A DNA stretch of 64,000 nucleotides from Microcaecilia unicolor. Its lineage: Eukaryota. Under the pieces are notes generated by a model. That model saw nothing but the letters and a program-made list of their open reading frames with translations. It searched no databases and was not told the DNA's origin. A program made the position numbers and the translations under genes. Below are positions 3,240 to 41,981 of the stretch, piece by piece. How positions within the stretch are numbered: position 1 is the stretch's first letter; every line of letters begins with the position of its first letter. Location of the stretch: contig NC_044037.1 in NCBI RefSeq assembly GCF_901765095.1, positions 104,359,279 to 104,423,278 of the forward strand, written 5' to 3'.

Positions 3240-3398
3240 CTTGCCAGTTTTGATGTCTCTCACGTAGATACCCTTGTTCTCATCCAGGGGGATGGCCTCC
3301 CTGGTCAGCACCACTTCTACCTCCACTGGAGGAACATATTCCATAGGCCCCCGAATCATCCAGCGGTCTCCAGGCTTCCTTTCCACATCATTCCCATC
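3240..3398 (-). CDS. MVP: MVP exon: [53 protein letters not shown]
   Basis: Aligns to human [52 protein letters not shown](VR). Acceptor ccccttggtatAG, donor AAG|GTGAGG. The next exon (VRAVIGSTYML...) was not found between 2700 and 3240 and is presumably beyond the window start. Confidence 0.8.
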
Positions 3399-3454
3399 CT
3401 ATACCAAGGGGAGAGAAGATCAAACAACACAAGAACATAAGCATTGCCATACTG

Positions 3455-3600
3455 GGTCAGACCAAAGGTCCATTAAGTCCAGTATCTGGTTTCAAACAGT
3501 GGCTAATTTTGGTTATATGTACCTGGCAGGATCCCAAAAAGCACCACGATTCCATAATACCAACCCCCAGGATAAGTAATGGCTTTCCACAAATCTACCT
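3455..3600 (-). mobile_element. CR1-like LINE 3'-end fragment
   Basis: ccatactgggtcagaccaaaggtccattaagtccagtatc resembles the reverse complement of the CR1 3' UTR. Confidence 0.6.
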
Positions 3601-4139
3601 TAATAATTAATAGATTAGTCCAGGAACTTGTTCAAACCTATATGCTAACTGCTTTTACCACATCCTCTGGCATTATATGAAAAAAAATGTTTTCTGACTT
3701 ATTTTAAATTTAGTACTTAGTAACTTCATGGTGTGTCCCCTTGTCTTTCATTTTTTTTGAAAATTCCACTGCTTTCATGATTTTATTGACCCCTCTTGTA
3801 TTTCCTCTCAGTCGTCTCTTCTCAAAGATGAAGCCTTTCCTCATAGGGACGTCATTACATCCCCTTTATCATTTTGATTGCCCTTCTCTGTACCTTTTCT
3901 AATTCTGTTATATCTTTTTGGAGATGCAGTGACCAGAACTGTACACAACACTCAAGATGTGGTCACACCCTGGAGTGATACAGAGGCATTATGATATTTT
4001 ATTTTATGCTCTATTCATTTCTTAGTAATTCCTAATGTTGCTTGCTTTTTTGGCCACCACTGCACACTGAGAAGATTTCAATGTAATGTTCATAATGACA
4101 GCTAATTTCTTTTCTCAGTATTGAGTCCTAATGTGGAAC

Positions 4140-4910
4140 ATGATAACATAAGAACAGCCATACTAGGTCAAACCAATGGTCCATCTAGATAAGTATCCTG
4201 TTTCCAACAGTGACCAATCCAGGTCACAAGTACCTGGCAGAAACCCAAATACTAGCACCATTCAATGATACCAATCCCAGGGTAAGCAGTGGTTTTCCCC
4301 ATGTCTATCTCAATAGCAGACTATGGACTTTTCCTCCAGGAACATGTCTAAACCCAGATACACTAACCGCTATTATCACATTCTCTGGCAACAAGTTTCA
4401 GAAATTAACTATTCATTGACAGAAAAAAATATATTTCCTTCTATTTGTTTTAAAAGTGTTTTCATTTAACTTCATTGAGTGTCCCCTAGTCTTTGTACAT
4501 TTTGAAAGAGCAAAAAAATTGATTCAATTCTACTCATTCTACACCACTCAGGATTTTATTGACCTCAATTGTATCTCCCCTCAGTCATCTTTTTTCCAAG
4601 CTGAACCTAGCATCTTCCATCTATAATTTAGGCCATTCTTTTTTATTTGCATCAGTTTGCCCTTGTGAGATTGGGAATCCAGATGGCAGATGAAATTTCA
4701 TGTGGATGCCATCCTCATACAATTTAACAACTTTGCATAATTGTGTATCATCTGCAAATTTTATCACCACATCATTTATAAGTATATTAAAAAGCACCAA
4801 TCCCAGTACAGATCCCTGGTGTACGCCACTATTCACTATATCCCATGATTCTTTAGTTGCCTTAAGAGGTACTTTGTCAAAAACCTTCTGAAAATCCAGG
4901 TTCACTGAGA
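4140..4910 (-). mobile_element. Diverged CR1-like LINE fragment (RT C-terminus plus 3' end), minus strand
   Basis: 4150-4230 is the reverse complement of the CR1 3' UTR motif (gccatactgggaaagaccaaaggtccatctag...). ORF 4621..4905 carries the FADDT RT motif. Confidence 0.7.
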
Positions 4911-5334
4911 TTTGTTTGATTTCTTCTGAAACATCACAACTTCAGGAATGGGTTGGTCCTTACTTCTTCCTCAGTAAAGACTGAAGCAAAGAATTCATTT
5001 AAAGGGAAAGTTATTAAGATGTGTTAAAGACATAATGCATGTTATTTGCTTCTTAACAGGTGTTGAAATGGCAACAACATGTTATAATCTCTGCCCATCC
5101 ACACCCCCCCCCCCCCCCCATCATTCCTCCCCACAAAGCACCTTTTCCTATCACATCCTCCCTTTTTCTAAAGACTGTAGCATCTCCTTCCCAAACCTAT
5201 CTGTATACTAGAGCTGTGTGGGGATGAAGACAACGGGAAACCTGCAGAAATCTGTGGGGATGGGGACGGGAGGGGAGTGATCAAAAATGAATGAGGATGA
5301 GAGGGAATAGATTCCAGATTATGTTGTCAGGGGT

Positions 5335-5730
5335 GGCCCAATGCAATCTGCTACCTGAGGCAGGGATAAGATGCCTCCCCCGCCCGGTCTAGCATCTCCC
5401 CCTTCCTTCCTCAACCATCTTCCCCGCATTTACCTTATTTTTTTTTTCTTTTCCAAAAAATGGCAGCGATTCCCACAGGCTGCCCTGCCACGGTGCTGCT
5501 GGTACCAGCCTCTTCACTCTACTGTGTCCCGCCTCTGAGGAAACAGGAAGTTATGTCAACAGGTGGACCACAGTAGGGAGATGAAGCAGGTGCCGGCAGC
5601 AGGGCAGTCTATGGGAATCACTGCCGCATTTTGAAAAAGAAAATACTGTAAATAAGGTAAATATGAGGAAGAGGGCTGAGGAGGGAAGGAGAGAGTGCCG
5701 CCTGAGGCCTCTGCCTCAGCTGGCCTAATA
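5335..5730. mobile_element. Foldback/MITE-like element with ~180-bp inverted arms and a ~110-bp loop
   Basis: 5345-5480 (...ccttccttcctcaacc...ttaccttatttttttttt...tggcagcgattcccacaggctgccctgcc) is reverse-complementary to 5585-5725. A partial paralog lies at 63826-64000. Confidence 0.65.
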
Positions 5731-6815: not shown

Positions 6816-7321
6816 ATATTGTGAATGATGGAAATACAATTTGATACAATTTGTTACAGTACTGTTATGGTTACAATACATTGTGAATGATGGAAATACA
6901 ATTTGTTACAGTACTGTTATGGTTACATAGTGAGGAGTTATGTGAAGACAAAGTCAAAATCAAAATATCATTTGGGAAAATAGAACAGTGGAATGTATCA
7001 ATGGACAAAATATCATTTGTGGATAGAACAATGCAGTGTATCGATGGGGAAATGATAGGGCGATAGAACAATAGCAAGAGAGCATTAGGGTATAGCAATT
7101 TTATCTAAGGGTAGAGTTTTAGGTGTGGTGAAAGTACAGGGAAGAGAATTCAGAAGAGAGTGTATTGATGCATTTCTATTAGTGTGTATGGAATTCATGT
7201 GTTCTGATCCTTGCAATACATTTTTTCGAAGAGATGATGTGGGAGAGAGGTTCTGGAAGCAAAATTTAGGCTCTTAGGTAGAAAGCTGAAATCCAGATCC
7301 TCCAGGGTAGCATTTTCTGAA

Positions 7322-7549
7322 ATGCTACCTGTGCCACGCGCAGGGCCCAAGAGACAGGCAGAGCTCCAGAGTCTCAATGCGTGGATGAGACGATGGTGCA
7401 GGGAGGAGGGCTTTAGATTTGTTAGGAACTGGGCAACATTCTGGGGAAGGGGGAGCCTATTCCGAAAGGATGGGCTCCATCTTAACCAGAGTGGGACCAG
7501 GCTGCTGGCATCGGCGTTTAAGAAGGAGATAGAGCAGCTTTTAAACTAG
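7322..7549 (+). CDS. LINE ORF1 C-terminal fragment (...RKDGLHLNQSGTRLLA...)
   Basis: It sits immediately upstream of the ORF2 ATG at 7552, and the C-terminus resembles CR1/L2 ORF1 ends. Confidence 0.5.
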   Translation: MLPVPRAGPKRQAELQSLNAWMRRWCREEGFRFVRNWATFWGRGSLFRKDGLHLNQSGTRLLASAFKKEIEQLLN

Positions 7550-7551
7550 AA

Positions 7552-8634
7552 ATGGGGGGAAGGCCGACAGTCGCTCAAAAGAGCATGGTTCGGGATAAGG
7601 TATCTTTCAAAGATATCACCATAACAGGGAAGATAGAGTATCCTGATAGTGAGGTTGCAAAAGAGATTGTAGTAGATCGGGTATCTTTAAATAACAATAA
7701 AAATCAGACAAAAGATTGCCAATTAATACTGTCAAGTACTAAGCATGATGTACTTAGGAACAACAAACATAGTTTGAAATGTCTATATGCGAATGCCAGG
7801 AGCCTAAGAAATAAGATGGGGGAGTTGGAATATATTGCACTAAATGAAAAATTAGATATAATAGGCATCTCTGAGACCTGGTGGAAGGAGGATAACCAGT
7901 GGGACACTGTCATACCGGGGTACAAATTATATCGTAGTGATAGGGTGAATCGGATTGGTGGAGGGGTAGCATTGTATATTAACGAGAGCCTTGAATCAAA
8001 TAGATTGAAAATTCTGCAGGAAACAAAACACTCCTTGGAATCACTGTGGATTGAAATTCCATGTGCAAAGGGGAAAAGGATAGTGATAGGAGTGTACTAC
8101 CGTCCGCCTGGCCAGGACGAACAGACGGATGCGGAAATGTTAAAGGAAATCAGGGACGCAAACAAACTGGGCAATACAATAATAATGGGGGATTTCAATT
8201 ACCCGCATATAGACTGGGTTAATGTAACATCTGTACACGCAAGGGACATAAGATTTCTTGATGAAATCAAGGACAGTTTCATGGAACAGCTAGTTCAGGA
8301 GCCGACAAGAGAAGGAAAAATACTAGACTTAGTCCTTAGTGGTGCTCATGATCTAGTGCAGGGGGTAACGATACGAGGGCCGCTTGATAACAGTGATCAT
8401 AATATGATCGGTTTTGATATTGGCATTGAAGGAAGTGAAACTAGGAAATCAAGTACGCTAGCGTTTAACTATAGAAAAGGTGATTACGACAAAATGAGAA
8501 AAATGGTGAAAAAAAGACTGAAAGGAGCAGCTCGCAGAGTAAAAAACTTGCATCAGGCGTGGATGCTGTTTAAAAACACCATCCTGGAGGTTCAGGACAA
8601 ATATATTCCACAGAAAAAAGGGAAAAAAGACTAA
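7552..8634 (+). CDS. LINE ORF2, apurinic-endonuclease-like domain segment, ending at an in-frame stop
   Basis: Carries EN motifs (ISETWW, LYRSDR, GGGVALYI, GDFNYPHIDW, SDHNMI). Confidence 0.8.
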   Translation: MGGRPTVAQKSMVRDKVSFKDITITGKIEYPDSEVAKEIVVDRVSLNNNKNQTKDCQLILSSTKHDVLRNNKHSLKCLYANARSLRNKMGELEYIALNEKLDIIGISETWWKEDNQWDTVIPGYKLYRSDRVNRIGGGVALYINESLESNRLKILQETKHSLESLWIEIPCAKGKRIVIGVYYRPPGQDEQTDAEMLKEIRDANKLGNTIIMGDFNYPHIDWVNVTSVHARDIRFLDEIKDSFMEQLVQEPTREGKILDLVLSGAHDLVQGVTIRGPLDNSDHNMIGFDIGIEGSETRKSSTLAFNYRKGDYDKMRKMVKKRLKGAARRVKNLHQAWMLFKNTILEVQDKYIPQKKGKKD

Positions 8635-8812
8635 ACGTCAGCCGGCGTGGCTAAACAGTAAGATAAAGGAAATCATTAGAGCCAAAAAACAATCCTTCAG
8701 AAAGTGGAGAAGAGAACCAACTGAAAGTAACAGGATAGATCATAAGGAATGCCAAGCCAAATGCAAAGCGGAGATAAGGAGGGCAAAAAAGGACTTTGAG
8801 AAGAAATTAGCG

Positions 8813-10570
8813 TTGGAAGCAAAAATACATAGTAAAAATTTTTTTAGATACATTAAAAGCAGGAAACCGGCCAAAGAGTCGGTTGGGCCGCTGGACGAAA
8901 ATGGTGTTAAAGGGGCGATCAAGGAGGACAAAGCCGTAGCGGAGAAATTAAATGAATTCTTTGCTTCGGTCTTCACCGAGGAGGATTTGGGGGGGACACC
9001 GGTGCCGGAAAGAATATTTGAAGCGGGGGAGTCGGAGAAACTAAACAAATTCTCTGTAACCTTGGAGGATGTAATGGGTCAGTTCAGCAAGCTGAAGAGT
9101 AGTAAATCACCGGGACCTGATGGTATTCATCCCAGAGTATTAATAGAACTAAAAAATGAACTTGCGGAGCTACTGTTAGAAATATGCAATCTGTCCCTAA
9201 AATCGAGTGTAGTACCGGAAGACTGGAGGGTAGCCAATGTTACTCCGATTTTTAAGAAGGGTTCCAGAGGAGATCCGGGAAATTATAGACCGGTGAGTCT
9301 GACGTCGGTGCCGGGCAAGATGGTGGAGGCTATTATTAAGAATAAAATTGCAGAGCATATACAAAAACATGGACTGATGAGACAAAGTCAGCACGGATTT
9401 AGTGAAGGGAAGTCTTGCCTCACCAATCTAATGCATTTTTTTGAGGGGGTAAGCAAACATGTGGACAATGGGGAGCCGGTTGATATTGTATATCTGGATT
9501 TTCAGAAGGCGTTTGACAAAGTGCCGCACGAAAGACTCCTGAAGAAATTGCAGAGTCATGGAATCGGAGGTAGGGTATTATTATGGATTAAGAACTGGTT
9601 GAAAGATAGGAAGCAGAGAGTAGGATTGCGTGGCCAGTATTCTCAGTGGAGGAGGGTAGTTAGTGGGGTCCCGCAGGGGTCTGTGCTGGGTCCGTTGCTT
9701 TTTAATGTATTTATAAATGACCTAGAGATGGGAATAACTAGTGAGGTAATTAAATTCGCCGATGACACAAAATTATTCAGGGTCGTCAAGTCGCAGGAGG
9801 AATGTGAACGATTACAGGAGGACCTTGCGAGACTGGGAGAATGGGCGTGCAAGTGGCAGATGAAGTTCAATGTTGACAAGTGCAAAGTGATGCATGTGGG
9901 TAAGAGGAACCCGAATTATAGCTACGTCTTGCAAGGTTCCGCGTTAGGAGTTACGGATCAAGAAAGGGATCTGGGTGTCGTCGTCGATGATACGCTGAAA
10001 CCTTCTGCTCAGTGTGCTGCTGCGGCTAGGAAAGCGAATAGAATGTTGGGTGTTATTAGGAAGGGTATGGAGTCCAGGTGTGCGGATGTTATAATGCTGT
10101 TGTATCGCTCCATGGTGCGACCGCACCTGGAGTATTGTGTTCAGTACTGGTCTCCGTATCTCAAAAAAGATATAGTAGAATTGGAAAAGGTACAGCGAAG
10201 GGCGACGAAAATGATAGTGGGGATGGGACGACTTTCCTATGAAGAGAGGCTGAGAAGGCTAGGGCTTTTCAGCTTGGAGAAGAGACGGCTGAGGGGAGAT
10301 ATGATAGAAGTGTATAAAATAATGAGTGGAATGGATCGGGTGGATGTGAAGCGACTGTTCACGCTATCCAAAAATACTAGGACTAGAGGGCATGAGTTGA
10401 AGCTACAGTGTGGTAAATTTAAAACGAATCGGAGAAAATTTTTCTTCACCCAACATGTAATTAGACTCTGGAATTCGTTGCCGGAGAACGTGGTACGGGC
10501 GGTTAGCTTGACGGAGTTTAAAAAGGGGTTAGATAGATTCCTAAAGGACAAGTCCATGGACCGCTATTAA
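8813..10570 (+). CDS. LINE ORF2, reverse transcriptase domain plus C-terminal region
   Basis: Carries RT motifs (PGPDGIHPRVL, YRPVSLTSV, FDKVPHERLL, VPQGSVLGPLLF, FADDTKLF) and a CR1-type C-terminus (LEYCVQYWSPY...). Confidence 0.85.
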   Translation: MEAKIHSKNFFRYIKSRKPAKESVGPLDENGVKGAIKEDKAVAEKLNEFFASVFTEEDLGGTPVPERIFEAGESEKLNKFSVTLEDVMGQFSKLKSSKSPGPDGIHPRVLIELKNELAELLLEICNLSLKSSVVPEDWRVANVTPIFKKGSRGDPGNYRPVSLTSVPGKMVEAIIKNKIAEHIQKHGLMRQSQHGFSEGKSCLTNLMHFFEGVSKHVDNGEPVDIVYLDFQKAFDKVPHERLLKKLQSHGIGGRVLLWIKNWLKDRKQRVGLRGQYSQWRRVVSGVPQGSVLGPLLFNVFINDLEMGITSEVIKFADDTKLFRVVKSQEECERLQEDLARLGEWACKWQMKFNVDKCKVMHVGKRNPNYSYVLQGSALGVTDQERDLGVVVDDTLKPSAQCAAAARKANRMLGVIRKGMESRCADVIMLLYRSMVRPHLEYCVQYWSPYLKKDIVELEKVQRRATKMIVGMGRLSYEERLRRLGLFSLEKRRLRGDMIEVYKIMSGMDRVDVKRLFTLSKNTRTRGHELKLQCGKFKTNRRKFFFTQHVIRLWNSLPENVVRAVSLTEFKKGLDRFLKDKSMDRY

Positions 10571-11018
10571 ATGGACTTGGAAAAATTCCGCATTTTTAGG
10601 TATAACTTGTCTGGAATGTTTTTACGTTTGGGGAGCGTGCCAGGTGCCCTTGACCTGGATTGGCCACTGTCGGTGACAGGATGCTGGGCTAGATGGACCT
10701 TTGGTCTTTCCCAGTATGGCACTACTTATGTACTTATGTACTAGTAGTTTGCGGAAGTCGGTTAGTTCGTAGGTCGTTTTCAGGTTGCGTGGTACTGTAT
10801 TCCAGAAGTGTTCTTCTGACATTGAAATCTGTGGCAGAGAATACAGAGGAGCAATTGCCACTGAACCAGGTGCAACAAGCAGTTCCTGCCCAAATTGTGC
10901 ACTACTGATGACTCCTTGCTGGCAGAAGTTATGGTGTTGGAACCATCGGCAGATACTAAGCCTTCACTACATCTAGTGGTATCTATAAAATATAAGTTGA
11001 CAGCCATGTAATAGCATC

Positions 11019-16009: not shown

Positions 16010-16135
16010 CTCATCCTTCTCTTCCAAGTACTCCAGGGCCTTCAGCACTAACCCTTCCTCCTCCGATAGGATGTACACATTCTGGATCCCATTCTCCAGG
16101 CTCTCCCCAGGCTGCAGGAAAAAGGATTTCTCTCC
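16010..16135 (-). CDS. MVP: MVP exon: [42 protein letters not shown]
   Basis: Not in the ORF track because it is short, but translating the reverse complement gives a clean match to human [44 protein letters not shown]. Acceptor cttctgcAG|GGAGAG, donor GATGAG|GTAAGC. Confidence 0.8.
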
Positions 16136-16486
16136 CTGCAGAAGAACACAACAGTGGTTAAAGTCCTCTGCATACTCATTCCTGCTAAACCAAACAGACC
16201 CCGCCCCTCTTAATGCATTTTAAGTTGCTAAAAAAAAAGATCAGATTGAAAACCGAGTCTGTGGAGCTCAATATGCGTCAATGCTAGAATCTGTTCAGAT
16301 AAGACAGGGTAGGAAGAAAGGGAGAGGTGTTGGTATTATATGTTAAAGATAATATTAAAGCCACATAACTGCAGGAACTATAGGGTAAGGAAGAGGCACT
16401 ATGGGTCAATCTGGAAAGAGGAAATGGAAAATGTATTTACACTGGTGTGATATACAGGCCTCCTTCACAAACAGAAGAAAGGTAAA

Positions 16487-16645
16487 ATTATGTATCATAC
16501 CTGATAATTTTCTTTCCATTAATCATAGCTGATCAATCCATAGACTGGTGGGTTGTGTCCATCTACCAGCAGGTGGAGATAGAGAGCAAACTTTTGCCTC
16601 CCTATATGTGGTCATGTGCTGCCGGAAACTCCTCAGTATGTCAAT
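16487..16645. repeat. DIRS-like element terminal inverted repeat (3' ITR of the minus-strand element)
   Basis: It is the reverse complement of 21903-22066. Confidence 0.8.
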
Positions 16646-17139
16646 ATCAAAGCTCCATCCGCAGGACTCAGCACTTAGAGAATTACACCCACGAAGGGAC
16701 ACTCTGCCCAGCTCACCACCGCCGAAACGGGGGAGGGGAATTAACCCAGCTCATCCCCACACAAGTGGGGGAGGGGAATCTGTCCAGCTCATCCCCGCGG
16801 AGCGGGGGAGGGACACCACACCCGCCGATGCGGGGGGATCTGGCTTATCCTGCAACCGCAACCGCGGGAGGAGCTGACTGACCCTAACACCGCCGAAGCG
16901 GGAGGGGTACAAAGCTGCCCTACAGCCGCACGAAGCGGGAGGGAGTGCCGGCAGAATTTAAATCTCAATCCGGCCCCGTAAAACGGAGGGGAGAGGAATG
17001 CAGCAGCTCACTGTAACACAAACTCGTCTCAACTCTTGAAGAATCCAAGTGAAAGAAGAACTTGAACACGAAGTCCTCCTGAAGTAACTGAAGGCTAAAC
17101 TTGAACCTAAAATTCAACCAGAATATAAACAGTACAGAT

Positions 17140-17250
17140 ATCTGGGAGGGGCTATGGATTGATCAGCTATGATTAATGGAAAGAAAATTATCAGGTATGA
17201 TACATAATTTTACCTTCCATATCATCAAGCTGATCAATCCATAGACTGGT
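17140..17250. repeat. DIRS internal complementary region (ICR)
   Basis: 17140-17206 is the reverse complement of 16487-16553, and 17207-17250 is the reverse complement of about 22020-22063. Confidence 0.7.
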
Positions 17251-17504
17251 GGGATGTACCGAAGCAGTACTCACCCAGGGCGGGACATAGAAATCCCTGA
17301 CCGCAACACTGAAGCTCCAAACCGGGCCTCCGCCCGAGCAGCCACAGTCAAGCGGTAATGCCTGGCAAAGGTATGGGCCTTCCCTGCGGCCACCTAAGCC
17401 GCTGCAATGGCTTCCTTGCCCATCTTGCCACTGTAGGCTTAGAATCCTGCAGACCCTTACGAGGACCTGTAAACAGGACAAACAGATGATCCGATTTCCG
17501 GAAA

Positions 17505-23812: not shown

Positions 23813-23907
23813 TTTTTCGGTAAGGACGCAGGCATCAACTATGTTCACAACTTCTTCAAAGACCCCAGGGAGATATGCACCCACCTTCTTCACGAGCCAC
23901 TCCTCCC
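23813..23907 (-). CDS. MVP: MVP exon: (G)[31 protein letters not shown]
   Basis: Aligns to human [32 protein letters not shown]. Polypyrimidine tract plus tttgcAG acceptor, donor GAAAAA|GTATGT. The exact 5' boundary is within +/-3 nt. Confidence 0.75.
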
Positions 23908-26207: not shown

Positions 26208-26339
26208 CTGTCACCCGGTCATGTCCCTCCCGGTCCTTGCACTCTTTCCGGGCTCGCAGCCGGATGGCTTGGTTGTGGTGGATTACTGTAGCCTGAATGG
26301 TCTCTACCACTTCCACCTCCTTCCGGGGAATGTACGTAC
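26208..26339 (-). CDS. MVP: MVP exon: (G)[43 protein letters not shown](G)
   Basis: Aligns to human [45 protein letters not shown]. Acceptor ctctctccAG|GT, donor ACAG|GTGAGC. Phase is consistent with both flanking exons. Confidence 0.85.
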
Positions 26340-26481: not shown

Positions 26482-28832
26482 TTGCATTGCCTCCAATCAG
26501 GGCCGTGCCAATGCGGTAAGTGGGGTAAGCAAGGCAGGGGGGCGCCTGCCTTTGAGGGGCGCCGCTGCCCTGCCATCCCTGCCTTCCACTCGCTTGCAAA
26601 ATCTTTTACCTGAAGTTGTGATTCTCCTACCTCCCCTGCCCTCCTTTTCATGGCAAACTGGAAGTGAAAGCAACGCAACGCAACGCAGCAGTATTCACTG
26701 AGGCAGGCAGGCTCTTCAAGTTATTTGAGAGAATGCAACCAGATTGCTATATATGTCTTTGGTTTGGGGATAACTCCTCACTCAGGGTGAACTTCAGAGC
26801 TTGAACAGCATTCATATTAAAGAGACTGGGAGAATGGGCGTGCAAGTGGCAGATGAAGTTCAATGTTGACAAGTGCAAAGTGATGCATGTGGGTAAGAGG
26901 AACCCGAATTATAGCTAGGTCTTGCAAGGTTCCGCGTTAGGAGTTACGGATCAAGAAAGGGATCTGGGTGTCGTCGTCGATGATACGCTGAAACCTTCTG
27001 CTCAGTGTGCTGCTGCGGCTAGGAAAGCGAATAGAATGTTGGGTGTTATTAAGAAGGGTATGGAGTCCAGGTGTGCGGATGTTATAATGCCGTTGTATCG
27101 CTCCATGGTGCGACCGCACCTGGAGTATTGTGTTCAGTACTGGTCTCCGTATCTCAAAAAAGATATAGTAGAATTGGAAAAGGTACAGCGAAGGGCGACG
27201 AAAATGATAGTGGGGATGGGACGACTTTCCTATGAAGAGAGGCTGAGAAGGCTAGGGCTTTTCAGCTTGGAGAAGAGACGGCTGAGGGGAGATATGATAG
27301 AAGTGTATAAAATAATGAGTGGAATGGATCGGGTGGATGTGAAGCGACTGTTCACGCTATCCAAAAATACTAGGACTAGAGGGCATGAGTTGAAGCTACA
27401 GTGTGGTAAATTTAAAACGAATCGGAGAAAATTTTTCTTCACCCAACGTGTAATTAGACTCTGGAATTCATTGCCGGAGAACGTGGTACGGGCGGTTAGC
27501 TTGACGGAGTTTAAAAAGGGGTTAGATAGATTCCTAAAGGACAAGTCCATAGACCGCTATTAAATGGACTGGAAAAATTCCTCATTTTTAGGTATAACTT
27601 GACTGGAATGTTTTTACGTTTGGGGAGCGTGCCAGGTGCCCTTGACCTGGATTGGCCACTGTCGGTGACAGGATGCTGGGCTAGATGGACCTTTGGTCTT
27701 TCCCAGTATGGCACTACTTATGTACTTATGTACTTATGTAAATTTTAAAAGTGCTAAAAATACGTTTTTTAAGTATTTGCATTAAATCTAATTGCAGAAT
27801 TCAGGTGCTGGGAGTCTGTACTTGGTTGTCATATGCTCAGATTTGTTTAAATCATATGCAAATTACTCTGTTTTTGGGAGGTTCACATTTGCATATTTAT
27901 GGATCAAAAATGATGGGAATGTTTACAGCCTTAATGTTAGGTCATGGCTCTGATCAAAAGTGTGAAGTTTGATCCAAAAACGAAGGGTTTATCTAGTGTT
28001 TTTCACTAAGAATTCCCATGAGTGTCTGTATGTTAATCTGCATTCAAATAGAGCTCTCTGATTGGATGATCAGCTTCTGTTAGAAATCTGCCGGGAATGG
28101 AACAGAGTGAGACAGCAACTGATCGTCGGTTTGGTCAAGAGAGACATGCAGCTGTGAGTTCCTGTTTGTGTTGACTGAAATTATAAGAGTGCCTGATTAT
28201 GTGGTAAATGAGAAAATATGAGTGAAAAGAGGTTGGTGGAGTTTGAGGTTTCGCTAGTGAGAAAAGGATCTGAATATTTCAGGATTACTTGAAGTTTATG
28301 AAGAATAGAAAAGGGTGAATTTCAGTTTAAGAGTGTTTAAATCCTATAAGCTATATAAAGGCTAGGTAGATTTAAGTGACTGTAAGCAAGGAAACCTTAA
28401 TATTTGATCTGAAATAAATATTTGATCTGAGATAGTTGATCAGAGATAAATGTTTGATCTGAATTATATCCTTTGGTGCAAAGGAGATTAGAAAAAGAAT
28501 CTTTGGAAACTAAGAGGATTTTGCCCACATTTTGAATTAGCATTCCTATTTTGAGTTGGAAATCTTTGGAAACTAAGAGGACTTTGCCCACATTTTGAAT
28601 TAGCATTCCTATTTTGAGTTGGAAATCTTTGAAGTGTTATGAAAATACATTTTGCTTTAATGACATTGCTAAACTTTAGAGTCAGAGACTTATCAATGAG
28701 GGATACCTACAGTGCTATTTTTTCCTGAGGTCTGGCTTACTTGCCTGCTCCCTTCTGTTCCTGCTCTGCTAGGCGGAGAGGGGGCGCCAACTGATAGTCT
28801 GCAGGGGGGCACCAGAGACCCTAGGCACGGCC
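26482..28832. mobile_element. Non-autonomous DNA-transposon-like element with CAGGGCCGTGCC termini, carrying a nested CR1 fragment and internal 62-bp tandem repeats
   Basis: The 5' end is cagggccgtgccaatgcggtaagtggggtaagca and the 3' end ...ggcacggccctg is its inverted complement. The internal CR1 copy is at 26820-27735. Tandem repeats lie at 28395-28625. Confidence 0.55.
26820..27735 (+). mobile_element. 5'-truncated copy of the same CR1-like LINE (RT C-terminus plus 3' UTR and (tacttatg)n tail)
   Basis: Near-identical to 9830-10740. ORF 26922..27563 repeats the C-terminal RT sequence. Confidence 0.85.
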
Positions 28833-31407: not shown

Positions 31408-31788
31408 ATGCAAACAACACACACGAAAGGCCAAACACTAGACCTCATCTTATACAAACTATCCACTGACCAGAACCTAACCATAACACAAATCAGATGG
31501 ACAGAAATACCATTGACCGACCACTATAAATTAAACCTATCCCTAAAATGGCGGAAAAAAGGCTCTCTCCACACAAGACAACACACAACCCACATCACGA
31601 GAGGCCAAATAAACCCGGATACTTTCTGGCAACAGATATACAATAACGACTGGACAACACAAACGGACTCCATCCACTATCTCTCAGTTTGGGACAAAAG
31701 ATGCAGACACATACTAGACACAATAGCACCCCTACAAACAAGAACCCACGCAGACACAACTCGATACCGTGGTTCAACGAAGAATTGA
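31408..31788 (+). pseudogene. Degenerate LINE endonuclease C-terminal segment
   Basis: PTHxxGxTLDLI and SDH-like motifs. Confidence 0.55.
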
Positions 31789-32446
31789 AAAAATCAAAAA
31801 CACAATCAAGGAGACTAGAACGCGCATGGAAAAAAAAAATAAAAGACGAACACACACTCAATGCATGGAAATAGGTACAAAGGACATACAAATATGCAAT
31901 AAGACAGACCCAAAGGTCATATTACAAAACCAAAATTGGGCCGGACTACAACAACACGAAGAAACTATACCATCTCGTGAACAAATTACTAGACACAACA
32001 CCGGTCACCACAACCAACATCGACATCCCATGTGTAGACAACCTTGCTAAATATTTCAACGAAAAAATTATTAATCTACGCCAAACCCTACCTCTGGACA
32101 ACACGGATATAAAAACTTCATAAATGGGCTGGACCCCACCCCTGGTGATTACCCGGCGGACCGATTATGGACAAACTTCATTCTCATCTGCGCCGACATA
32201 GTTACTCAGGCGATTAAAAAATACTCCAAAAGCCACTGTCAATTGGACATCTGCCCCAGCTACCTAATACAATCTGCCCCCCACCGCTTCATAAATCCCA
32301 TCTAAATTTCATGCTTCAGCGGGGTATTTTCCCTAAAGAAAAAGGCAACATCCTGCTCACCCCAATACCAAAAGACACCAAGAAAAAAAACAAATGACAT
32401 CACCAACTACCGCCCAGTAGCATCTATCCCATTAGTAGTCAAACTT

Positions 32447-32824
32447 ATGGAAGGATTGGTGACCAAACAACTCAACGATTACATAAACAAATTCACTACA
32501 CTACATGAATCACAATCAGGATTCCGACTCCAACATAGCACCGAAACAGTACTACTCACTCTCCTATCCAAATTCAAGCAGGAGATAGCAATAGGCAAAA
32601 GCATTCTCCTCCTTCAATTTGACATATCCAGTGCGTTCGACATGGTTAACCATAACATATTGCTAAGACTCCTAGACTATTTCGGAATTGGTGGTAACAC
32701 TCTCAACTGGATTAAGGGCTTTCTAACCACCAGAACATACCAAGTGAAATCAAGCACCAACATATCGTCACCCTGGAAACCAGACTGTGGAGTACCACAA
32801 GGATCACCACTATCAAGCTCATGA
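32447..32824 (+). pseudogene. Degenerate LINE RT segment
   Basis: Shows SQSGFRLQHSTETVLL, FDISSAFDMVNH and GVPQGSPLS. Confidence 0.65.
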
Positions 32825-33252
32825 TGGTCCCACTAGCCAAAGCCTCATCCACATAAGGCCTTAATCCATTCACTTACGCTGATGACGTAACACTATACAT
32901 TCCCTACAAGCATGATTTAGCAGAAATCACCAATAAAATCAAGCTCAGCTTAAACATCATAAACTCATGGGCAAATGCATTCCAACTAAAACTCAACACA
33001 GAAAAAACACACTGTCTCATCATCACATCCCAACACAACACAACACATACAAACCCACAAACATTAACACCCCAGGATACACCCTCCCTATTTCAGACAG
33101 CCTGAAAATTCTCGGAGTAACAATCTACCGAAACCTCCAACTAGAGTCCCAAGCTAAACTCACCATAAAGAAAATGTTCCTCTCAATGTGGAAATTAAAA
33201 CGTGTGAAAACCATTCTTCCCGAGGGAAATATTTCGCAACCTGGTACAGTCA

Positions 33253-33738
33253 ATGGTACTAAGCCACGCAGACTATTGTAACGGAATCTATGCGGGATGC
33301 AAAGAACAAATAATAAAGAAACTTCAAACCACCCAAAACACAGCAGCACAGCTTATATTTGGAAAAACGCGTTATGACAATGCCAAACCACTCCGAGAAA
33401 AACTGCACTGGCTTCCAATTAAGGAACGCATCGCATTCAAAATCTGCATGACAGTTCACAAAATCATCTATGGCGAGGCACCGGGATACATGACAGACCT
33501 CATCAACCTAACACTCAGAAACACCATAAAATCAGTACGATCATACCTAAACCTCCACTACCCAAACAGCAAAGGACTCAAATACAAATCAACCTATGCA
33601 TCCAGCTTTTCCTACCTGAGCGCACAATTGTGGAACGCACTATCAAAAGCAGTAAAAACCACAGTCGACCACATGAATTTCCGGAAAGCACTAAAAACAG
33701 AACTGTTCAGAAGGGCATACCCCACCAACTCAACATAA
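33253..33738 (+). pseudogene. Degenerate LINE ORF2 C-terminal segment
   Basis: It is an L2-type C-terminus. Confidence 0.6.
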
Positions 33739-34292: not shown

Positions 34293-34416
34293 CAGGACCC
34301 TCAAAGAGCCACTCATCTCCTGCTACAAATTTGTCCCCAGCATCATCCTCAAAATCAAGCAGCGCCTTCAGATGTAGTGCAGTGTTTGCAATGACAATCT
34401 TCAAGGGCGTGATGCC
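34293..34416 (-). CDS. MVP: MVP exon: [41 protein letters not shown](G)
   Basis: Aligns to human [41 protein letters not shown]. Acceptor ttttttttcttcacacAG, donor CCTG|GTGAGT. Confidence 0.85.
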
Positions 34417-35639: not shown

Positions 35640-37110
35640 ATTTCAAAGACAGAAATTGAATAATGAGGCACAGCTACCTTCATACGTTTTGGATGTTACT
35701 GAATTCTATTATTCTGTCACACTGTATTTCCAGTTTTGGCACAGTGTAAGTCATCACAAGGACAAAATGTAAGAAAACCAATGGACTGCATTAGGGGCTT
35801 ACAGCCCATTTAATTATGTTTAAACAAATGAGAGATCTGCATGAAAGAAAATATCTATTTTTATTATTTTGACTTATGAAACCACTCGTCTCTGAAACAT
35901 GCTCAAAACACAATAATCCGTTTGTACAAAAGAGATAAGGTGAAGATGTGATTCTATGTGCTCCAATGAAAGGAGAGTTTAATTTTACTTCCAATCGTTA
36001 TAACACCAGGATGCTCATTTTCGAAACAGATGGACGTCCAAAAAGTGACATAAATCGGCACTTAGACGTCCATCTCTCAGAGACGTCCAAATCAGTATAA
36101 TCGAAACCTGATTTTGGACGTCTTTATCAGAAGTCCGTCAAAATCTCAAGGGGGTGTATCAGAGGCGTGGTGAAGGCGGGACTTGGGCGTTCCTAAGACT
36201 TGGATGTCTTTGAGCCATAATGGAAAAACGCAGAGATGTCCAAGAGTTGGACATTTTTACCCTGACCTGTTTTTATTACGAATAAGGCACAAAAAGGTGC
36301 CCAAAATGACCACTGGAGGGAATCAGGGATAACCTCCCCTTACTCCCCCAGTGGTCATTAACCCCCTCCCACTCTTAAAAAACATCATTAAAAATATTAC
36401 TTGCCAGTCTCAGATGTCATACTCAGGTCCATGACAGCGCACACAGGTCCCTGGAGTAGTTTCGTAGTAGGTACAGTGCATGTCAGACAGTTGGACCCAG
36501 GCCCATCCCCCCTTACCTGTTACATTTGTGGAGGAAACAGCGAGCCCTCCAAACCCCACCAGAAACCCTCTGTACCCACACACAGGTGCCCCCCTTCACC
36601 CGTAAGGGCTATGATAGTGGTGTACAGTTGGAGGTAGTAGGTTTTGGGGGGCTCAGCACACAAGGTAAGGGAGCTGTGTACCTGGGAGCATTTTATGAAG
36701 TCCACTGCAGTGCCCCCCTGGGTGCCCGACTGCTGTCCTGGCATGTCAGGGGGACCAGTGTACTACAAATACTGGCTCCTCCCATGTACAAATGGCTTGA
36801 ATTTGGACGTTTTAGACTTGGACGTCTTTGGTTCCGAAAATCGCCGAAAATCAAAAATGTCCAAATCCAAGGACGTCCATGGTATTTTCAAAATGAAAGA
36901 TGGACGTCCATCTTTTTTCGAAAATGACCTTCTCCCCACTTCCGAATTTGGAGGCTTCCCAAAGTAGATTAAAACAACAGTTAAGATGAGCCCATCAGTA
37001 AACAGGATATCCTCACTGAAATTTGGCCATGTATTACTGTATTGTATAGAACAGTGTAGAAAAATGAGCACAAAAAAACAGCCTTTATTAGTGCTGTTTA
37101 CTTAAGAATA
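35640..37110 (-). repeat. Family X copy split by the nested DNA-transposon insertion (35640-36011 + 36967-37110)
   Basis: See 22490-22960. Continuity resumes exactly after the inserted element. Confidence 0.7.
36012..36966. mobile_element. Non-autonomous DNA transposon (~950 bp) with ~26-bp TIRs (ctcattttcgaaacagatggacgtcc / ggacgtccatcttttttcgaaaatgac) and many subterminal GGACGTC repeats, inserted inside another repeat
   Basis: The TIRs are visible. The host repeat (family X, 35640-37110) reads continuously across the insertion when compared with its paralog at 22490-22960. Confidence 0.7.
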
Positions 37111-37129
37111 TAAGAGTAGCCATACTGGG

Positions 37130-38390
37130 TCAGACAAATGGTCCATCTAGCCCAGTATCCTGTTTTCCAAACAGCAGCCAAGCCAAGTCACAAGTACCTG
37201 GCAGAAGCCCAATTAGTAGCAACATTCCATGCTACCAATCCTGGGGCAAGCAGCTGCTTCCCCATGTCTGTCTCAATAGCAGACTATGGATTTTTCCTCC
37301 AGGAATTTCTCCAAACCTTTTTTAAACCCAGATACACTAACCACTGTTACTACATCCTCCGGCAAAGAGTTCCAGAGCTTTTCTATTCGTTGAGTGAAAA
37401 AATATTTCCACCTATTTTTTTTTTTAAGTATTTCCATGTAACTTCCTCGAGCGTCCCCTAGTCTTTGTAATTTGGGAACGAGTAAAAAAAATCGATTTAC
37501 TTCTACTTGTTCTACACCACTCAGGATTTTGTAGACCTCAATCATATCTCCCCTCATCTGTCTCTTTTCCAAGCTGAAGAGCCCTAACTTCTTTAGCCTT
37601 TCCTCAAACAAGAGGAGTTCTATCCCCTTTATCATTTTGGTCGCTCTTCTTTGAATCTTTTCTAATTCCACTATTTCTTTTTTGAGATACGGCGACCAAA
37701 ACTGAAAATACTCAAGCTGCGGTCAAACCATGGAGCGATACAAAGGCATCATAGTATTTTGTCTTATTCACCATCCCTTTCCTAATAATTCTTAGCATCC
37801 TGATAGCTTTTTTGGCCACTGCCGCACACTGAGCAGAAGACTTCAGCGTATTATCTACAATGACATCTAGATCTTTTTCTTGAGTGCTGACCCCCAAAGT
37901 GAACCCTAGCATCAGGTAACTATGATTCAGATTATTCTTTCCAATGTGCATCACTTTGCATTTGTACACATTAAATTTCATCCGCTATTTGGATGCCCCA
38001 TCTTTCAATTTCCTAAGGTCTTCCTGCAATATTTCACAGTCTGCTCGTGTTTTAACAACCTTGAATACTTTTGTATCATCTGCAAATTTAATCACTTCAC
38101 TCGTCATTCCGATTTCCATGTCATTTATAAATATGTTAAATAGCACCGGTCCCAATATAGATCCCTGCGGCACTTCATTGTTCACCCTCCTCCATTGAGG
38201 GAAATTACAATTTAGTCCTACCCTCTGTTTTCTGTCCAATAACCAATTCCTAACCCACACCAGAACCTTGCCTCCTATCCCATGACTCTTTAATTTTCTT
38301 AGGAGTCTCTCATGAAGAACTTTATCAAAAGCTTTCTGAAAATCTAAATACATCAACCGGCTCACCTTTATCCACAATTCCACCAGCTAC
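37130..38390 (-). mobile_element. Diverged CR1-like LINE fragment (RT plus 3' UTR)
   Basis: ORFs 37273..37671, 37712..37981 and 37985..38383 carry RT motifs (FADDTKVF, VPQGSILGPVLF) and a CR1-type C-terminus. 37130-37210 matches the reverse complement of the CR1 3' UTR. Confidence 0.75.
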
Positions 38391-38489
38391 AATAATTTTT
38401 GAATGTGTTTTAGTGATATTCAGTTTTGATTTCATGATATTTATATCTACATATAGAAATCTTTCAAATAAATTAAGAAGCTGTCAAAT

Positions 38490-38870
38490 AAGTTAAAAAC
38501 AGAAGATAAAAAACAACAAAGCAGTGGAATCAAATGCATTTATTTGGAATAATACCCGACGTGGCCACGTTTCGCCCTCAGGCTGCGTCAGGGGTACAAA
38601 CTATCAAAAGTGTGTATATCATATACACTAGTAGTGAGATGAGAACAGTTATTCCAAAAATCTAGTTCCACTTTTCTGCTACTTCCCACTAAACTGATAT
38701 AACTGGAATAACTGTTCTCATCTCACTACTAGTGTATATGATATACTTATACACACTTTTGATAGTTTGTACCCCTGACGCAGCCTGAGGGCGAAACGTG
38801 GCCACGTCAGGTATTATTCCAAATAAAGGCATTTGATTCCACTGCTTTGTTGTTTTTTATCTACTGTTTT
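38490..38870. mobile_element. Foldback element with ~150-bp near-perfect inverted arms
   Basis: ggaataatacccgacgtggccacgtttcgccctcaggctgcgtcaggggtacaaactatcaaaagtgtgtatatcatatacactagtagtgagatgagaacagttattcc pairs with its reverse complement 38700-38820. The outer arms also pair (cagtggaatcaaatgc.../...gcatttgattccactg). Confidence 0.75.
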
Positions 38871-39289
38871 GTAAGCAGTTGTGTGCCTTTTTGTTTTTTT
38901 GGTTAAATAAGTTAAAAATAAATCTTTTGTCCTCCACCTTTTAAGGCACTGCCTATCCAACTGGAGCAACTTTTGACTTTTTACAGATGAATCACGCATA
39001 AGCAGTCCACTATAATATTTTACTATTGCTTTCAATAGCATTTGCTATTGTTTTGGGTGAACCAGTGACTACGCCTATTGACAGCAAGATCCGCATACTG
39101 GCTTCAACCCATACAATGGGCTAGATAGCCTCATACCGTTTCCTGTTCTCAATCTAACCTCCTTGATCAGAGCTGATGTTCAGCAGCACTGCCAGGTGAA
39201 GTGCCACAGAATATCGGTGGACAGGTGGTCTGTGTCCCGTCACTTAAGAAAACCCCGGGGACAGGGAAAAAGATGCAAACAGGGACTAG

Positions 39290-39800
39290 AACAGTGGCGT
39301 AGCCAAGGGTGGGCTTGGGTGGGCCCGGGCCCACCCACTTTGGGCTCAGGCCCACCCAGTAGCAGCACACCTATGATGGGGCTGGCAGAGATTCTCAAGC
39401 CCCACCAGCCAAAAACTCCCAACTCCCTCCTGCATACAGTACCTTATAAATAGCAGATCTTCGCCTGCAGCAAGCAGCGACTGATACATACTATTCGCAC
39501 CGGTCCCACAGCCTTCCCTCTGATATATTCCTGCCTATGCGGAAACAGGAAGTTGCATCAGAGGGAAGACTGTGGGGCCGGTGCGAACAGTATGTATCAG
39601 TCGCTGCTCGCTGCAGGCGAAGATCTGCTATTTACAAGGTATTCAGAGGAGGGGGATGTTTTTAAAGATCATATGGCATGCAGGCGAGAGAGGGAGAGAC
39701 CAAATCACATGTGGGACAGGGCGAAGTTCTTCTGCCCACCCATCTTGGGCCCAGGCCCATCCAAAATTGGGTGTCTGGCTACGCCCCTGGACTGGAAAAC
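39290..39800. mobile_element. Palindromic/foldback element centred near 39540
   Basis: ctgatacatactattcgcaccggtcccacagccttccctctgat pairs with atcagagggaagactgtggggccggtgcgaacagtatgtatcag. The outer pair is ggcgtagccaagggtgggcttgggtgggcccgggcccaccc / gggcccaggcccatccaaaattgggtgtctggctacgcc. Confidence 0.65.
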
Positions 39801-39999
39801 TAGAATTAGCTTCAGCCCCTGAGGGAGTGATATAAGAAAAGGACCTGGTAAACCGCAAGATCAATCCCTAGGAACAAGAGAAATCACCTACCCTCAAAAG
39901 ACCAGCCCCTTAGTTCCTCCAGTCAGAATAAGGGTTTAGAATTTCTGCCCAATCCTGTACTGGGGTGGAACTTAGAGGAGGAGTCTACTAGACTATAAC

Positions 40000-40270
40000 A
40001 GAATGAAAGTACGGTTGCCAGGTGGGCGGTTTTCCTACCCAATTGGGCGGTTTTCCGCGACCCGCTGCGGGAAATTTTTGTCCGCTGCGGGTCGTGGTTT
40101 TTTGGGCTATTTTGGGGGGTTTTGTGCTGGTTTTTGTGCGGTTTTTCAGGCCGCGGGGCTAATGACGTTTTGGACGGGGTTTGATGACGGCGGAGGCGGG
40201 GTTGATGACGGTGGGGGCGGGGGTGTGAACTTTTTGGGCGGGTTTTGGGGACGGGTAATTGGCAAAACTG
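40000..40270 (+). other. G/T-skewed, CpG-containing block with repeated GGGCGG / GCGGG motifs. It has G-quadruplex potential and lies within an MVP intron
   Basis: gggcggttttcc...ccgctgcggg...gacggcggaggcggggttgatgacggtgggggcgggggtg shows strong GT strand skew. Confidence 0.5.
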
Positions 40271-41141
40271 AATGAAAGTTGAAACAGAGCTCAGTCTTTG
40301 TGGGAAGGCTGAATGGAAAGTTGCTGGGCCAGAAGCTGAGGACTACAATGCAAGCAAGGACATACTGAACTGCTATCGTTTGGCGATATTTATCTTTTGA
40401 AGCCTTGGAACCTTGCCTGCGGGTGGATGTAGCTCAAAGGAAGAAGCTACGAGGGAGGAGGGCAGGCTCCAGTGAGAGGCCTGACTCTGGACATATAAGG
40501 GATATCTTTATAACTTTTTAAAAATTAAAATTTTGAAAGAAAACTGTTTTTTCAGTGGAACATAGTTGTGTTTTGGTTTGAATTCTGGCCCACACTGTGT
40601 TGGACATTGTTGAAGTGTGGAGTGGAACTAAGGAACTGAAAAATCGGTGACATCCAGCTCCCAGCTGGCAAGGACTGGATTCCACACTGGGGGAGGAGGT
40701 TGAGTTAAGACTTTGGAAGGGAATTTATGGGACAACCGCCCCATTCAAGGAGGGGTATAACTACTGTTGTTTGGAGGACAGAAATCTTGTACCCACAGAG
40801 GCCTGAGAGCATCAGAGAAGTCTTCAAGGTCACTTGGCCCACGCTCACGGATGGATGGCTTAGAGCTGTAAAGGTCTTCACAGTCATTCAGCCCACACTC
40901 ACGGGTGGGCAAGGCATGACACCAGGGTACCGCACACCATTTAATAGGGCAACAGCCTATCCTCCCAGTGAAATGGCTTTGAATATTGAGCCCTATATTT
41001 TCCTACCAGGAAACGAATGCCTCAAGGAAAAGATGTGGCATTTTGAAAAAGCAGTTCAGTTTTACAGTTTATTTGGGGTTTCCTTCTTTCACCGTAAGAA
41101 TCTCTACAAAACCTGGCTGGCTCCCCTACCACCAGTGTTAC

Positions 41142-41337
41142 CTGTTTCAGCTCCTCGCCTGGAAAGAGTGGGAAGGGGTCCTGTGCAAGCCGGACTTCCA
41201 GGTCACCGTGACGCAAGCGAGCCTGTCCTGCATTGTCAAGGAGCAGCCGCCGCTCTGCATCTCGGGCCACTGGATTCTCAATGATGCAATAGTGCCGCGG
41301 TGGAACCAGCACCATCTTCACTGGAGCAAACAACACC
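41142..41337 (-). CDS. MVP: MVP exon: (R)[65 protein letters not shown]
   Basis: Strong identity to human MVP [26 protein letters not shown]...[25 protein letters not shown]. Acceptor tttctgctcAG|G at 41339-41338, donor AAACAG|GTAACA at 41141. Phase matches the upstream exon (gag cg + g gtg = E R V). Confidence 0.85.
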
Positions 41338-41831
41338 CTGAGCAGAAAGAGGAAAAAGCAGTTCATTATGAGAAACAGAGGATATCTTATTTTTGTATGT
41401 GCTTTTTTTTAATGTGCACTGTGTTTCTTGTTGCTTGGTTTTATTAGCCTGAGGAACTGATCCTATCAAGCATTCTTTCTTCTGGACCCTTTACTGCACC
41501 AGAGACCTCAGTGCTAATGACTTAAAAAACCCACTGCTCATTTTAGCCTCACTTTCCTCTGAATTATGTTTTGGAGAAAGCCACAATAGAATCAGAAGAC
41601 AGTATCCTTTCAGTGTTACTGCTTCTCCCCTCGCTTTAATGTGAAAAGATTGTTGGGTCTCAGAGCTCCCATAGCACAGGCCTTCTTAGAGCTGGCGACA
41701 CACAAATACCCTGTCCTGGAAAGGAGGTCCTCAAGGACACTTCATAAGCAGGCTCCAGAGCCCCCCCCCCCCCCCCACACACACACAAACACACAGCACA
41801 TACCCCACAGTGACAACTGAGATTGCACTTA

Positions 41832-41981
41832 CCGCTCATTGTCCTGTCGGATGTAGGTCTTGGGCCCAGTTTCCACACGAGAGATGTTGTTGTTCTGGTC
41901 TAGCACATGGATGAAGTGGAAGGGGGGAATACGGATGATAGCTTCTTCACTCATTGTGAGGGCTATGGAGCTATGGAAGTC
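41832..41981 (-). CDS. MVP: Major vault protein, exon carrying the initiator ATG (CDS 41832..41953; 41954..41981 is 5'UTR after a ctctccAG acceptor). Encodes [40 protein letters not shown](R)
   Basis: Minus-strand translation aligns to the N-terminus of vertebrate MVP ([42 protein letters not shown]). GTAAGT donor at 41831-41826. The listed ORF is broken only by my miscount of a C6 run; the genomic frame is intact. Confidence 0.8.

What the first reader, a model, noticed from the sequence alone, without database searches (positions are those of the whole stretch)
3240..41981. 5' half of the major vault protein (MVP) gene with giant transposon-filled introns
Eight minus-strand exons (41832-41981, 41142-41337, 34293-34416, 26208-26339, 23813-23907, 23487-23723, 16010-16135, 3240-3398) translate contiguously into the MVP N-terminal vault repeats, with high identity to human MVP. 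Every boundary has GT/AG sites and compatible phase. The ATG exon begins at a splice acceptor, implying a non-coding exon 1 upstream, as in human. Introns are 6-12.6 kb, against ~1 kb or less in mammals. Each is occupied by a distinct TE: a CR1 LINE, a DIRS element, a MITE with a nested CR1 fragment, and foldbacks. This suggests a large-genome lineage.
Basis: partly seen in the sequence, partly recalled or inferred. Interest (0 to 1): 0.6.

Follow-up and report, generated by a model that had tools for sequence, protein, structure and literature searches.

The report
First half of a caecilian vault-protein gene
This is the ordinary, intact 5' half of the major vault protein gene, most likely from the caecilian Microcaecilia unicolor; four of its seven introns are swollen by common retrotransposons, as expected in a 4.7-Gb genome.

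Summary
Eight minus-strand exons join into an uninterrupted 397-aa reading frame once one boundary is moved by one base (41832 to 41833). The product matches rat MVP residues 3-397 colinearly (E 1.7e-196, 72% identity) and carries Vault repeat domains. All seven introns are GT..AG. The coding exon lengths (122/196/124/132/95/237/126/159 nt) are identical to those I mapped in white shark and in the amphisbaenian Rhineura, so the boundaries are independently supported. The 3' half of the gene lies beyond the window's left edge.

Only four of the seven introns are large (6.7, 8.0, 7.4 and 12.6 kb). The other three are 495, 2300 and 89 bp. The seven total 37.5 kb, against 29.9 kb in shark and 4.7 kb in Rhineura.

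The large introns hold:
- a near-full-length CR1 LINE;
- a complete DIRS1-like element with inverted terminal repeats and an internal complementary region;
- a truncated CR1 copy 99% identical to the first;
- an older CR1 remnant and two foldbacks.

The "MITE with a nested CR1 fragment" was not confirmed. The CR1 reverse transcriptase is 99% identical to a Microcaecilia unicolor protein. This is a known gene in a published genome: correct, and of low interest.

The parts
41833..41981 (-). ATG exon of MVP: 27 nt of 5' UTR (41955-41981) plus 122 coding nt (ATG at 41954-41952). An acceptor-like CTCTCTCTCCAG sits immediately upstream; the donor is CG|GTAAGT.
   Evidence: The end is corrected from 41832 to 41833.
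41142..41337 (-). MVP coding exon, 196 nt (aa 41-106)
34293..34416 (-). MVP coding exon, 124 nt
26208..26339 (-). MVP coding exon, 132 nt
23813..23907 (-). MVP coding exon, 95 nt
23487..23723 (-). MVP coding exon, 237 nt
16010..16135 (-). MVP coding exon, 126 nt
3240..3398 (-). MVP coding exon, 159 nt (aa 345-397), followed by a GTGAGG donor. The next exon is not in the window, so this intron is longer than 3.2 kb.
7238..10742 (+). CR1-type LINE, antisense to MVP, in the 12.6-kb intron. It has a GDSL/esterase-like ORF1 tail (7238-7546), an APE endonuclease (7552-8634), an RT (8813-10570, in a different frame from the endonuclease) and a 3' (ACTTATGT)n tail. The 5' limit was not determined.
16479..22062 (-). 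Complete DIRS1-like retrotransposon (5.6 kb), in the same orientation as MVP, in the 7.4-kb intron. Inverted terminal repeats are 22049-21935 and 16527-16641 (99%). The internal complementary region is 17152-17253. The gag-like ORF is 19929-21596, the RT 19199-19969, and the long downstream ORF 17505-19868.
26822..27734 (+). 5'-truncated CR1 copy (914 bp), 99% identical to 9829-10742, with the same octamer tail
31408..33738 (+). Decayed second LINE in the 8.0-kb intron. The RT domain is at 32447-32821. The C-terminal motifs look L2-like by eye.
37099..38383 (-). Old CR1 remnant (about 71% identical to the young copies; RT fragment at 37988-38383) in the 6.7-kb intron
38465..38901 (.). Foldback: arms of 154 nt at 89%, with an inner 43-nt perfect pair
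39421..39660 (.). Foldback: arms of 104 nt at 87%, 32-nt loop
3426..4605 (-). Two old CR1 3'-end fragments in sense orientation (about 3426-4115 and 4137-4605). The first ends 27 nt upstream of the acceptor of exon 3240-3398.

Best explanation
The window holds the first eight coding exons (aa 1-397) of the single-copy orthologue of the major vault protein gene, on the minus strand. It most probably comes from the caecilian Microcaecilia unicolor. By position against the rat structure, these residues cover vault repeat domains R1-R7 and the start of R8.

Shown here:
- The exons splice through canonical GT..AG introns.
- The intron positions match those of the white shark and the amphisbaenian Rhineura.
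- Four introns were enlarged to 6.7-12.6 kb by retrotransposon insertions: young CR1 LINEs, a very recent DIRS1-like element, a decayed second LINE, older CR1 fragments and foldbacks.

Inferred:
- The encoded N-terminal half forms the barrel wall and waist of the 78-subunit vault shell, as in rat. This rests on 72% identity to the solved protein.
- The introns are removed normally.
- A non-coding exon 1 lies further upstream.
For: The 397-aa open frame appears after the 1-nt correction, and all splice sites are canonical. Pfam gives Vault and Vault_2 repeats. The product aligns colinearly with rat MVP 3-397 at E 1.7e-196 and 72% identity. Six MVP queries hit the same eight blocks in the same order. 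Coding exon lengths are identical in window, Carcharodon and Rhineura.

Transposons: CR1 endonuclease and RT domains, the octamer tail, and DIRS inverted repeats with the internal complementary region.

Species: 333/335 aa identity of the CR1 RT to M. unicolor LOC115464802. The published LINE-then-DIRS repeat profile of that 4.7-Gb genome fits.
Against: No expression or junction data exist here. The 3' half of the gene (rest of R8, R9, shoulder, cap-helix, cap-ring) is outside the window, so the gene's integrity as a whole is unknown.

No MVP more than 74% identical was found in the protein database. The species assignment therefore rests on a transposon protein, not on a host gene. The DIRS element and several CR1 fragments lie in sense orientation and could in principle disturb splicing.
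Confidence: 0.95

Rival explanations
1. This is a decaying duplicate (unprocessed pseudogene or 'MVP-like' paralogue) rather than the functional orthologue.
For: The nearest database proteins are only 74% identical and one is named 'major vault protein-like'. Only half the gene is visible.
Against: There is no stop or frameshift in 1191 coding nt. All 14 splice sites are canonical. Exon lengths are exactly conserved with shark and squamate. Identity is roughly even across distant vertebrates at 67-74%, as expected for an amphibian orthologue.
Confidence: 0.04
2. Sub-claim rival: transcription starts just upstream of the ATG exon. There would then be no separate non-coding exon 1, and the CAG at 41982-41984 is not a used acceptor.
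For: No exon 1 could be located. The only CpG-rich stretch upstream (50801-51700) is dominated by a palindrome and abuts a decayed Tigger element.
Against: A pyrimidine tract plus CAG lies 27 nt upstream of the ATG here, 36 nt in Carcharodon and 9 nt in Rhineura. From my own memory, not checked here, human MVP has a non-coding first exon. The review I read confirms only 15 exons and a TATA-less promoter.
Confidence: 0.2
3. The large introns come from segmental duplication or assembly error rather than from independent transposon insertions.
For: Two CR1 segments 17 kb apart are 99% identical.
Against: The homology stops exactly at the CR1 3' tail and at a 5' truncation point, and the flanks are unrelated. 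The second copy behaves as a typical 5'-truncated LINE insertion. The other introns hold different element types.
Confidence: 0.02

Closest known systems
Rat and human major vault protein (PDB 4V60, 4HL8, 7PKR; human MVP gene at 16p11.2, 15 exons)
   Same: Colinear alignment over residues 3-397 at 72% identity with a single 1-aa gap. Same Vault repeat domains.
   Different: Only the N-terminal half is in the window. Four introns are 6.7-12.6 kb. Mammalian intron sizes were not measured here.
MVP genes of Carcharodon carcharias (JAGDEE010000442.1) and Rhineura floridana (CM057615.1)
   Same: Identical coding exon lengths for the first eight coding exons, and an acceptor-like motif just upstream of the ATG.
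   Different: The first seven introns total 37.5 kb here, 29.9 kb in shark and 4.7 kb in Rhineura. Different introns are expanded in shark (the largest is 16.2 kb, the second intron).
DIRS1-like tyrosine-recombinase retrotransposons (Dictyostelium DIRS-1; Xenopus DIRS; abundant in caecilians)
   Same: Inverted terminal repeats. An internal complementary region made of two abutting segments complementary to the two termini. A gag-like ORF related to LAP2alpha. An RT domain (PMC4495291).
   Different: The recombinase reading frame is interrupted and gives no Pfam hit. The methyltransferase-like hit is below threshold.
CR1 LINEs of birds, turtles and amphibians
   Same: APE endonuclease plus RT. 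Best homologues are bird and turtle RT proteins. An 8-nt tandem 3' tail. An esterase-like ORF1 end. A 5'-truncated daughter copy.
   Different: The endonuclease and RT are in different frames in this copy, so it is not autonomous.

Membership tests
Major vault protein (MVP) orthologue | Tandem Vault repeat domains at the N-terminus | tested here: met
   Pfam Vault E 1.9e-66 (4 stretches), Vault_2 E 4.6e-36 (2 stretches), and the start of Vault_4
Major vault protein (MVP) orthologue | Colinear similarity to experimentally solved MVP | tested here: met
   Rat MVP residues 3-397, E 1.7e-196, one 1-aa gap, 72% identity
Major vault protein (MVP) orthologue | Exon-intron structure shared with other vertebrate MVP genes | tested here: met
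   Coding exon lengths 122/196/124/132/95/237/126/159 are identical in window, Carcharodon and Rhineura
Major vault protein (MVP) orthologue | Shoulder, cap-helix and cap-ring domains in the C-terminal half | not testable with these tools
   Residues beyond 397 are not encoded in the window
Major vault protein (MVP) orthologue | Transcribed, spliced as predicted, and assembled into vault particles | not testable with these tools
   No RNA or protein data are available
DIRS1-like retrotransposon | Inverted terminal repeats | tested here: met
   16527-16641 against 21935-22049, 115 nt, 99%
DIRS1-like retrotransposon | Internal complementary region matching both element termini | tested here: met
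   17215-17253 is 100% complementary to 22062-22024, and 17152-17216 is 100% complementary to 16479-16543
DIRS1-like retrotransposon | Reverse transcriptase and gag-like ORF | tested here: met
   RVT_1 E 2.3e-16. LAP2alpha domain E 4.5e-15 in the 555-aa ORF. LAP2alpha derives from DIRS gag (PMC4495291).
DIRS1-like retrotransposon | Tyrosine recombinase instead of an integrase | tested here: inconclusive
   No Pfam hit. By eye there is only a core-binding-like segment and a '...HTFARHY' motif in another frame, so the ORF is interrupted.
CR1 LINE | ORF2 with APE endonuclease and RT | tested here: met
   Exo_endo_phos E 1e-13 and RVT_1 E 1.2e-36. The two are in different frames.
CR1 LINE | Short tandem-repeat 3' tail rather than poly(A) | tested here: met
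   (ACTTATGT)2-3 at the end of both copies
   No inverted repeat of 25 nt or more spans the fragment. Short-word blastn of the left against the right flank gives only chance matches of 19 nt or less, E 0.15 or worse.

The most novel reading that the evidence does not exclude
The most novel reading not excluded concerns the insertions, not the gene. The DIRS1-like element has termini 100% complementary to its internal complementary region, 99% identical inverted repeats and an open gag ORF. The two CR1 copies are 99% identical. These are very recent insertions into one housekeeping gene. If so, both families may still be active in this caecilian, and the sense-oriented DIRS copy might contribute cryptic exons or polyadenylation to MVP transcripts.
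Probability: 0.2. Interest if true: 0.2.

Novelty: already known. Interest (0 to 1): 0.08.

Why it matters
It matters little beyond annotation quality. MVP is a well-studied, highly conserved gene. The likely source genome (Microcaecilia unicolor) is published, and the paper reports an NCBI annotation for it (PMC10195157). Retrotransposon-driven intron growth is the expected state in a 4.7-Gb genome with 69% repeats. Two things are useful: a corrected exon boundary, and a textbook-complete DIRS1-like element that could serve as a reference copy for caecilian repeat libraries.

Tried and rejected
- Fetching the genomic loci of the M. unicolor CR1 protein P0143 and of two mammalian MVPs (P0007, P0004) failed, as they are not on record. 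I therefore have no host-gene confirmation of species and no mammalian intron comparison.
- Rfam at gathering thresholds and a tRNA scan of the whole window found nothing.
- I searched for terminal inverted repeats around the truncated CR1 to test the MITE claim and found none.
- I looked for the promoter and exon 1 through CpG content. Apart from stretches inside the DIRS element, the only CpG-rich region is 50801-51700. It is a palindrome-containing segment next to a decayed Tigger element, so I rejected it as a confident promoter call.
That negative is weak.
- I considered a pseudogene or paralogue and rejected it because the frame is intact, the splice sites are canonical and the exon lengths are conserved.
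- Solved MVP structures already match at E 1e-196.
Full report
**Observation**

Joining the eight minus-strand segments exactly as listed shifts the frame after the first one, and the donor next to 41832 reads T|AAGT. Moving that one boundary to 41833 gives the donor CG|GTAAGT. The eight exons then form one open frame of 397 codons, starting at the ATG at 41954-41952 and ending ...DIKTGK at 3240. All seven introns are GT..AG with phases 2,0,1,1,0,0,0. The other seven coordinate pairs are exact.

**Identity of the product**

- Pfam finds Vault (E 1.9e-66, four stretches), Vault_2 (E 4.6e-36) and the first residues of Vault_4.
- Against all PDB chains the best matches are major vault proteins. 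Rat MVP residues 3-397 align colinearly with one 1-aa gap at E 1.7e-196, which is 286/396 = 72% identity.
- A search of the large protein collection returns 526 MVP relatives. The best are white shark and the amphisbaenian Rhineura at 74%, with mammals at 72%.
- tblastn of six of these against the window finds the same eight blocks in the same order and strand. It finds nothing for residues beyond about 400 (415 for Callorhinchus), and no block below window position 3198. The 3' half of the gene therefore lies off the left edge, and the last visible intron exceeds 3.2 kb.

**Independent test of the exon boundaries**

I fetched the genomic loci of the shark and Rhineura proteins and mapped their exons by requiring GT/AG sites and exact translation. 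The coding exon lengths are 122/196/124/132/95/237/126/159 nt in all three species. Intron positions and phases are therefore conserved across jawed vertebrates, and the corrected model here is very unlikely to be wrong.

| Species | Sizes of the seven introns (bp) | Total |
|---|---|---|
| Window | 495, 6725, 7953, 2300, 89, 7351, 12611 | 37.5 kb |
| White shark | 4138, 16172, 1432, 134, 1959, 4306, 1721 | 29.9 kb |
| Rhineura | 726, 759, 286, 81, 520, 1496, 797 | 4.7 kb |

'Introns are 6-12.6 kb' is thus true of four of the seven. The expansion is about eight-fold relative to a squamate and similar to another large genome. I could not retrieve a mammalian locus.

**5' end**

The ATG exon is preceded by TTATTTCCTCTCTCTCTCCAG|AG, 27 nt upstream of the ATG. 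Equivalent pyrimidine-tract-plus-CAG motifs lie 36 nt upstream in shark and 9 nt upstream in Rhineura. This supports a conserved intron in the 5' UTR, but only as inference. A review confirms that human MVP has 15 exons and a TATA-less promoter (PMC7916137). That its first exon is non-coding is my own recollection.

I could not locate exon 1. Outside transposons, the only CpG-rich stretch is 50801-51700. It contains a near-perfect palindrome at 51078-51336 and abuts a decayed Tigger/pogo element.

**What fills the introns**

- 12.6-kb intron. A CR1-type LINE lies on the plus strand. It has a GDSL/esterase-like ORF1 end (7238-7546, E 2e-6, below Pfam's cut-off), an APE endonuclease (7552-8634), an RT (8813-10570) in a different frame, and an (ACTTATGT)n tail ending at 10742. 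Two older CR1 3' fragments lie in sense orientation at 3426-4605. The first ends 27 nt before the acceptor of the last visible exon.
- 7.4-kb intron. A complete DIRS1-like element spans 16479-22062 in sense orientation.
  - Its inverted terminal repeats are 115 nt at 99%.
  - Its internal complementary region is 17152-17253. The two abutting halves of this region are each 100% complementary to one terminus.
  - It has a 555-aa gag-like ORF with a LAP2alpha domain (E 4.5e-15). That domain is known to derive from DIRS gag (PMC4495291).
  - It has an RT and a sub-threshold Dam-like methyltransferase hit.
  - Its recombinase region is interrupted.
- 8.0-kb intron. A 914-bp 5'-truncated CR1 at 26822-27734 is 99% identical to the full copy and carries the same tail. 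No terminal inverted repeats flank the CR1 fragment, so the 'MITE with nested CR1' is not supported.
- 6.7-kb intron. It holds an old CR1 remnant at 37099-38383 (RT fragment, about 71% identical to the young copies) and two foldbacks at 38465-38901 and 39421-39660.

**Source organism**

The CR1 RT is 333/335 identical to 'uncharacterized protein LOC115464802' of Microcaecilia unicolor. All other hits with more than 57% query coverage are 75% identical or less. The published M. unicolor genome is 4.7 Gb and 69.3% repeats, with LINEs the most abundant transposons, followed by DIRS. It also has an NCBI annotation (PMC10195157). The window's content fits that description. The assignment rests on a transposon protein rather than a host gene, so it is probable, not proven.

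**How it works**

Shown: an intact, canonically spliced coding region for MVP residues 1-397.

Inferred from 72% identity to the solved rat protein and from established knowledge of vault architecture: these residues form repeat domains R1-R7 and the start of R8. Those domains build the barrel wall and the waist where the two 39-subunit halves of the vault meet. The transposons are intronic passengers removed by splicing. Nothing here suggests a new function.

**Verdict**

- one exon boundary is off by 1 nt;
- only four introns are large;
- the MITE claim is unconfirmed;
- there is an extra LINE and an extra old CR1 remnant.

This is a known, conserved gene in a published genome, showing expected transposon-driven intron growth. 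Interest is low.

Noticed in passing
window 47485-48484 and 53822-55013: Two minisatellite arrays of related units (43 bp and 45 bp; about 12 and 24 copies) lie in inverted orientation, 5.4 kb apart. They bracket the Tigger remnant and the CpG-rich palindrome. They produce long spurious Pro/Ser-rich ORFs on both strands. The second array appears to interrupt a repeat that is contiguous at 36013-36952.
   Followed up: partly
window 51078-51336 (within the CpG-rich stretch 50801-51700): A near-perfect palindrome (91-nt arms, 91%) centred on TGATGTCA, followed by a 25-28-bp GC-rich tandem repeat at 51362-51451. It is the only CpG-island-like stretch upstream of MVP that is not inside a recognised transposon. 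It could be a promoter or a foldback element.
   Followed up: partly
window 48916-50300, minus strand: A decayed Tigger/pogo transposase (HTH_Tnp_Tc5 E 1e-14, DDE_1 E 6e-41) with in-frame stops.
   Followed up: yes
window 6515-6825, 13158-13350, 30303-30483, 33881-34012, 52319-52481, 59564-59742, 62427-62577: A short interspersed repeat family with a shared core (...CATTTGTAYCCCRC.TTTCCCAC...GGCTCAATGYGGCTTACA), in both orientations, 80-92% identical between copies. It is probably a SINE or MITE of this genome.
   Followed up: no
window 58686-59114 (+) and 61015-62202 (-): A 142-aa ORF with a weak GIY-YIG hit (E 0.013), possibly a Penelope-like remnant. A 395-aa ORF with a coiled-coil region looks like a LINE-1 ORF1 by eye but has no significant Pfam hit.
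   Followed up: partly
window 3426-3445, minus strand: A sense-oriented CR1 3' end stops 27 nt upstream of the acceptor of exon 3240-3398. The branch-point region of that intron may therefore be transposon-adjacent.
   Followed up: no
protein hits P0095, P0096, P0118: Proteins from the cyanobacteria Moorena producens, Moorea sp. SIO3I7 and UBA11371, some named 'colicin uptake protein', are 54-55% identical to this MVP N-terminal half over 99-100% of its length and carry full Vault domain sets. They are either true bacterial MVP homologues or contamination.
   Followed up: no
L001 (Carcharodon carcharias JAGDEE010000442.1): The shark 'MVP-like, partial' model ends at exactly the same exon boundary (residue 397) as the visible part of the gene in this window.
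   Followed up: partly
window 13476-14186: A GT/GA-rich low-complexity tract with a C19 run, giving a spurious 236-aa ORF.
   Followed up: no
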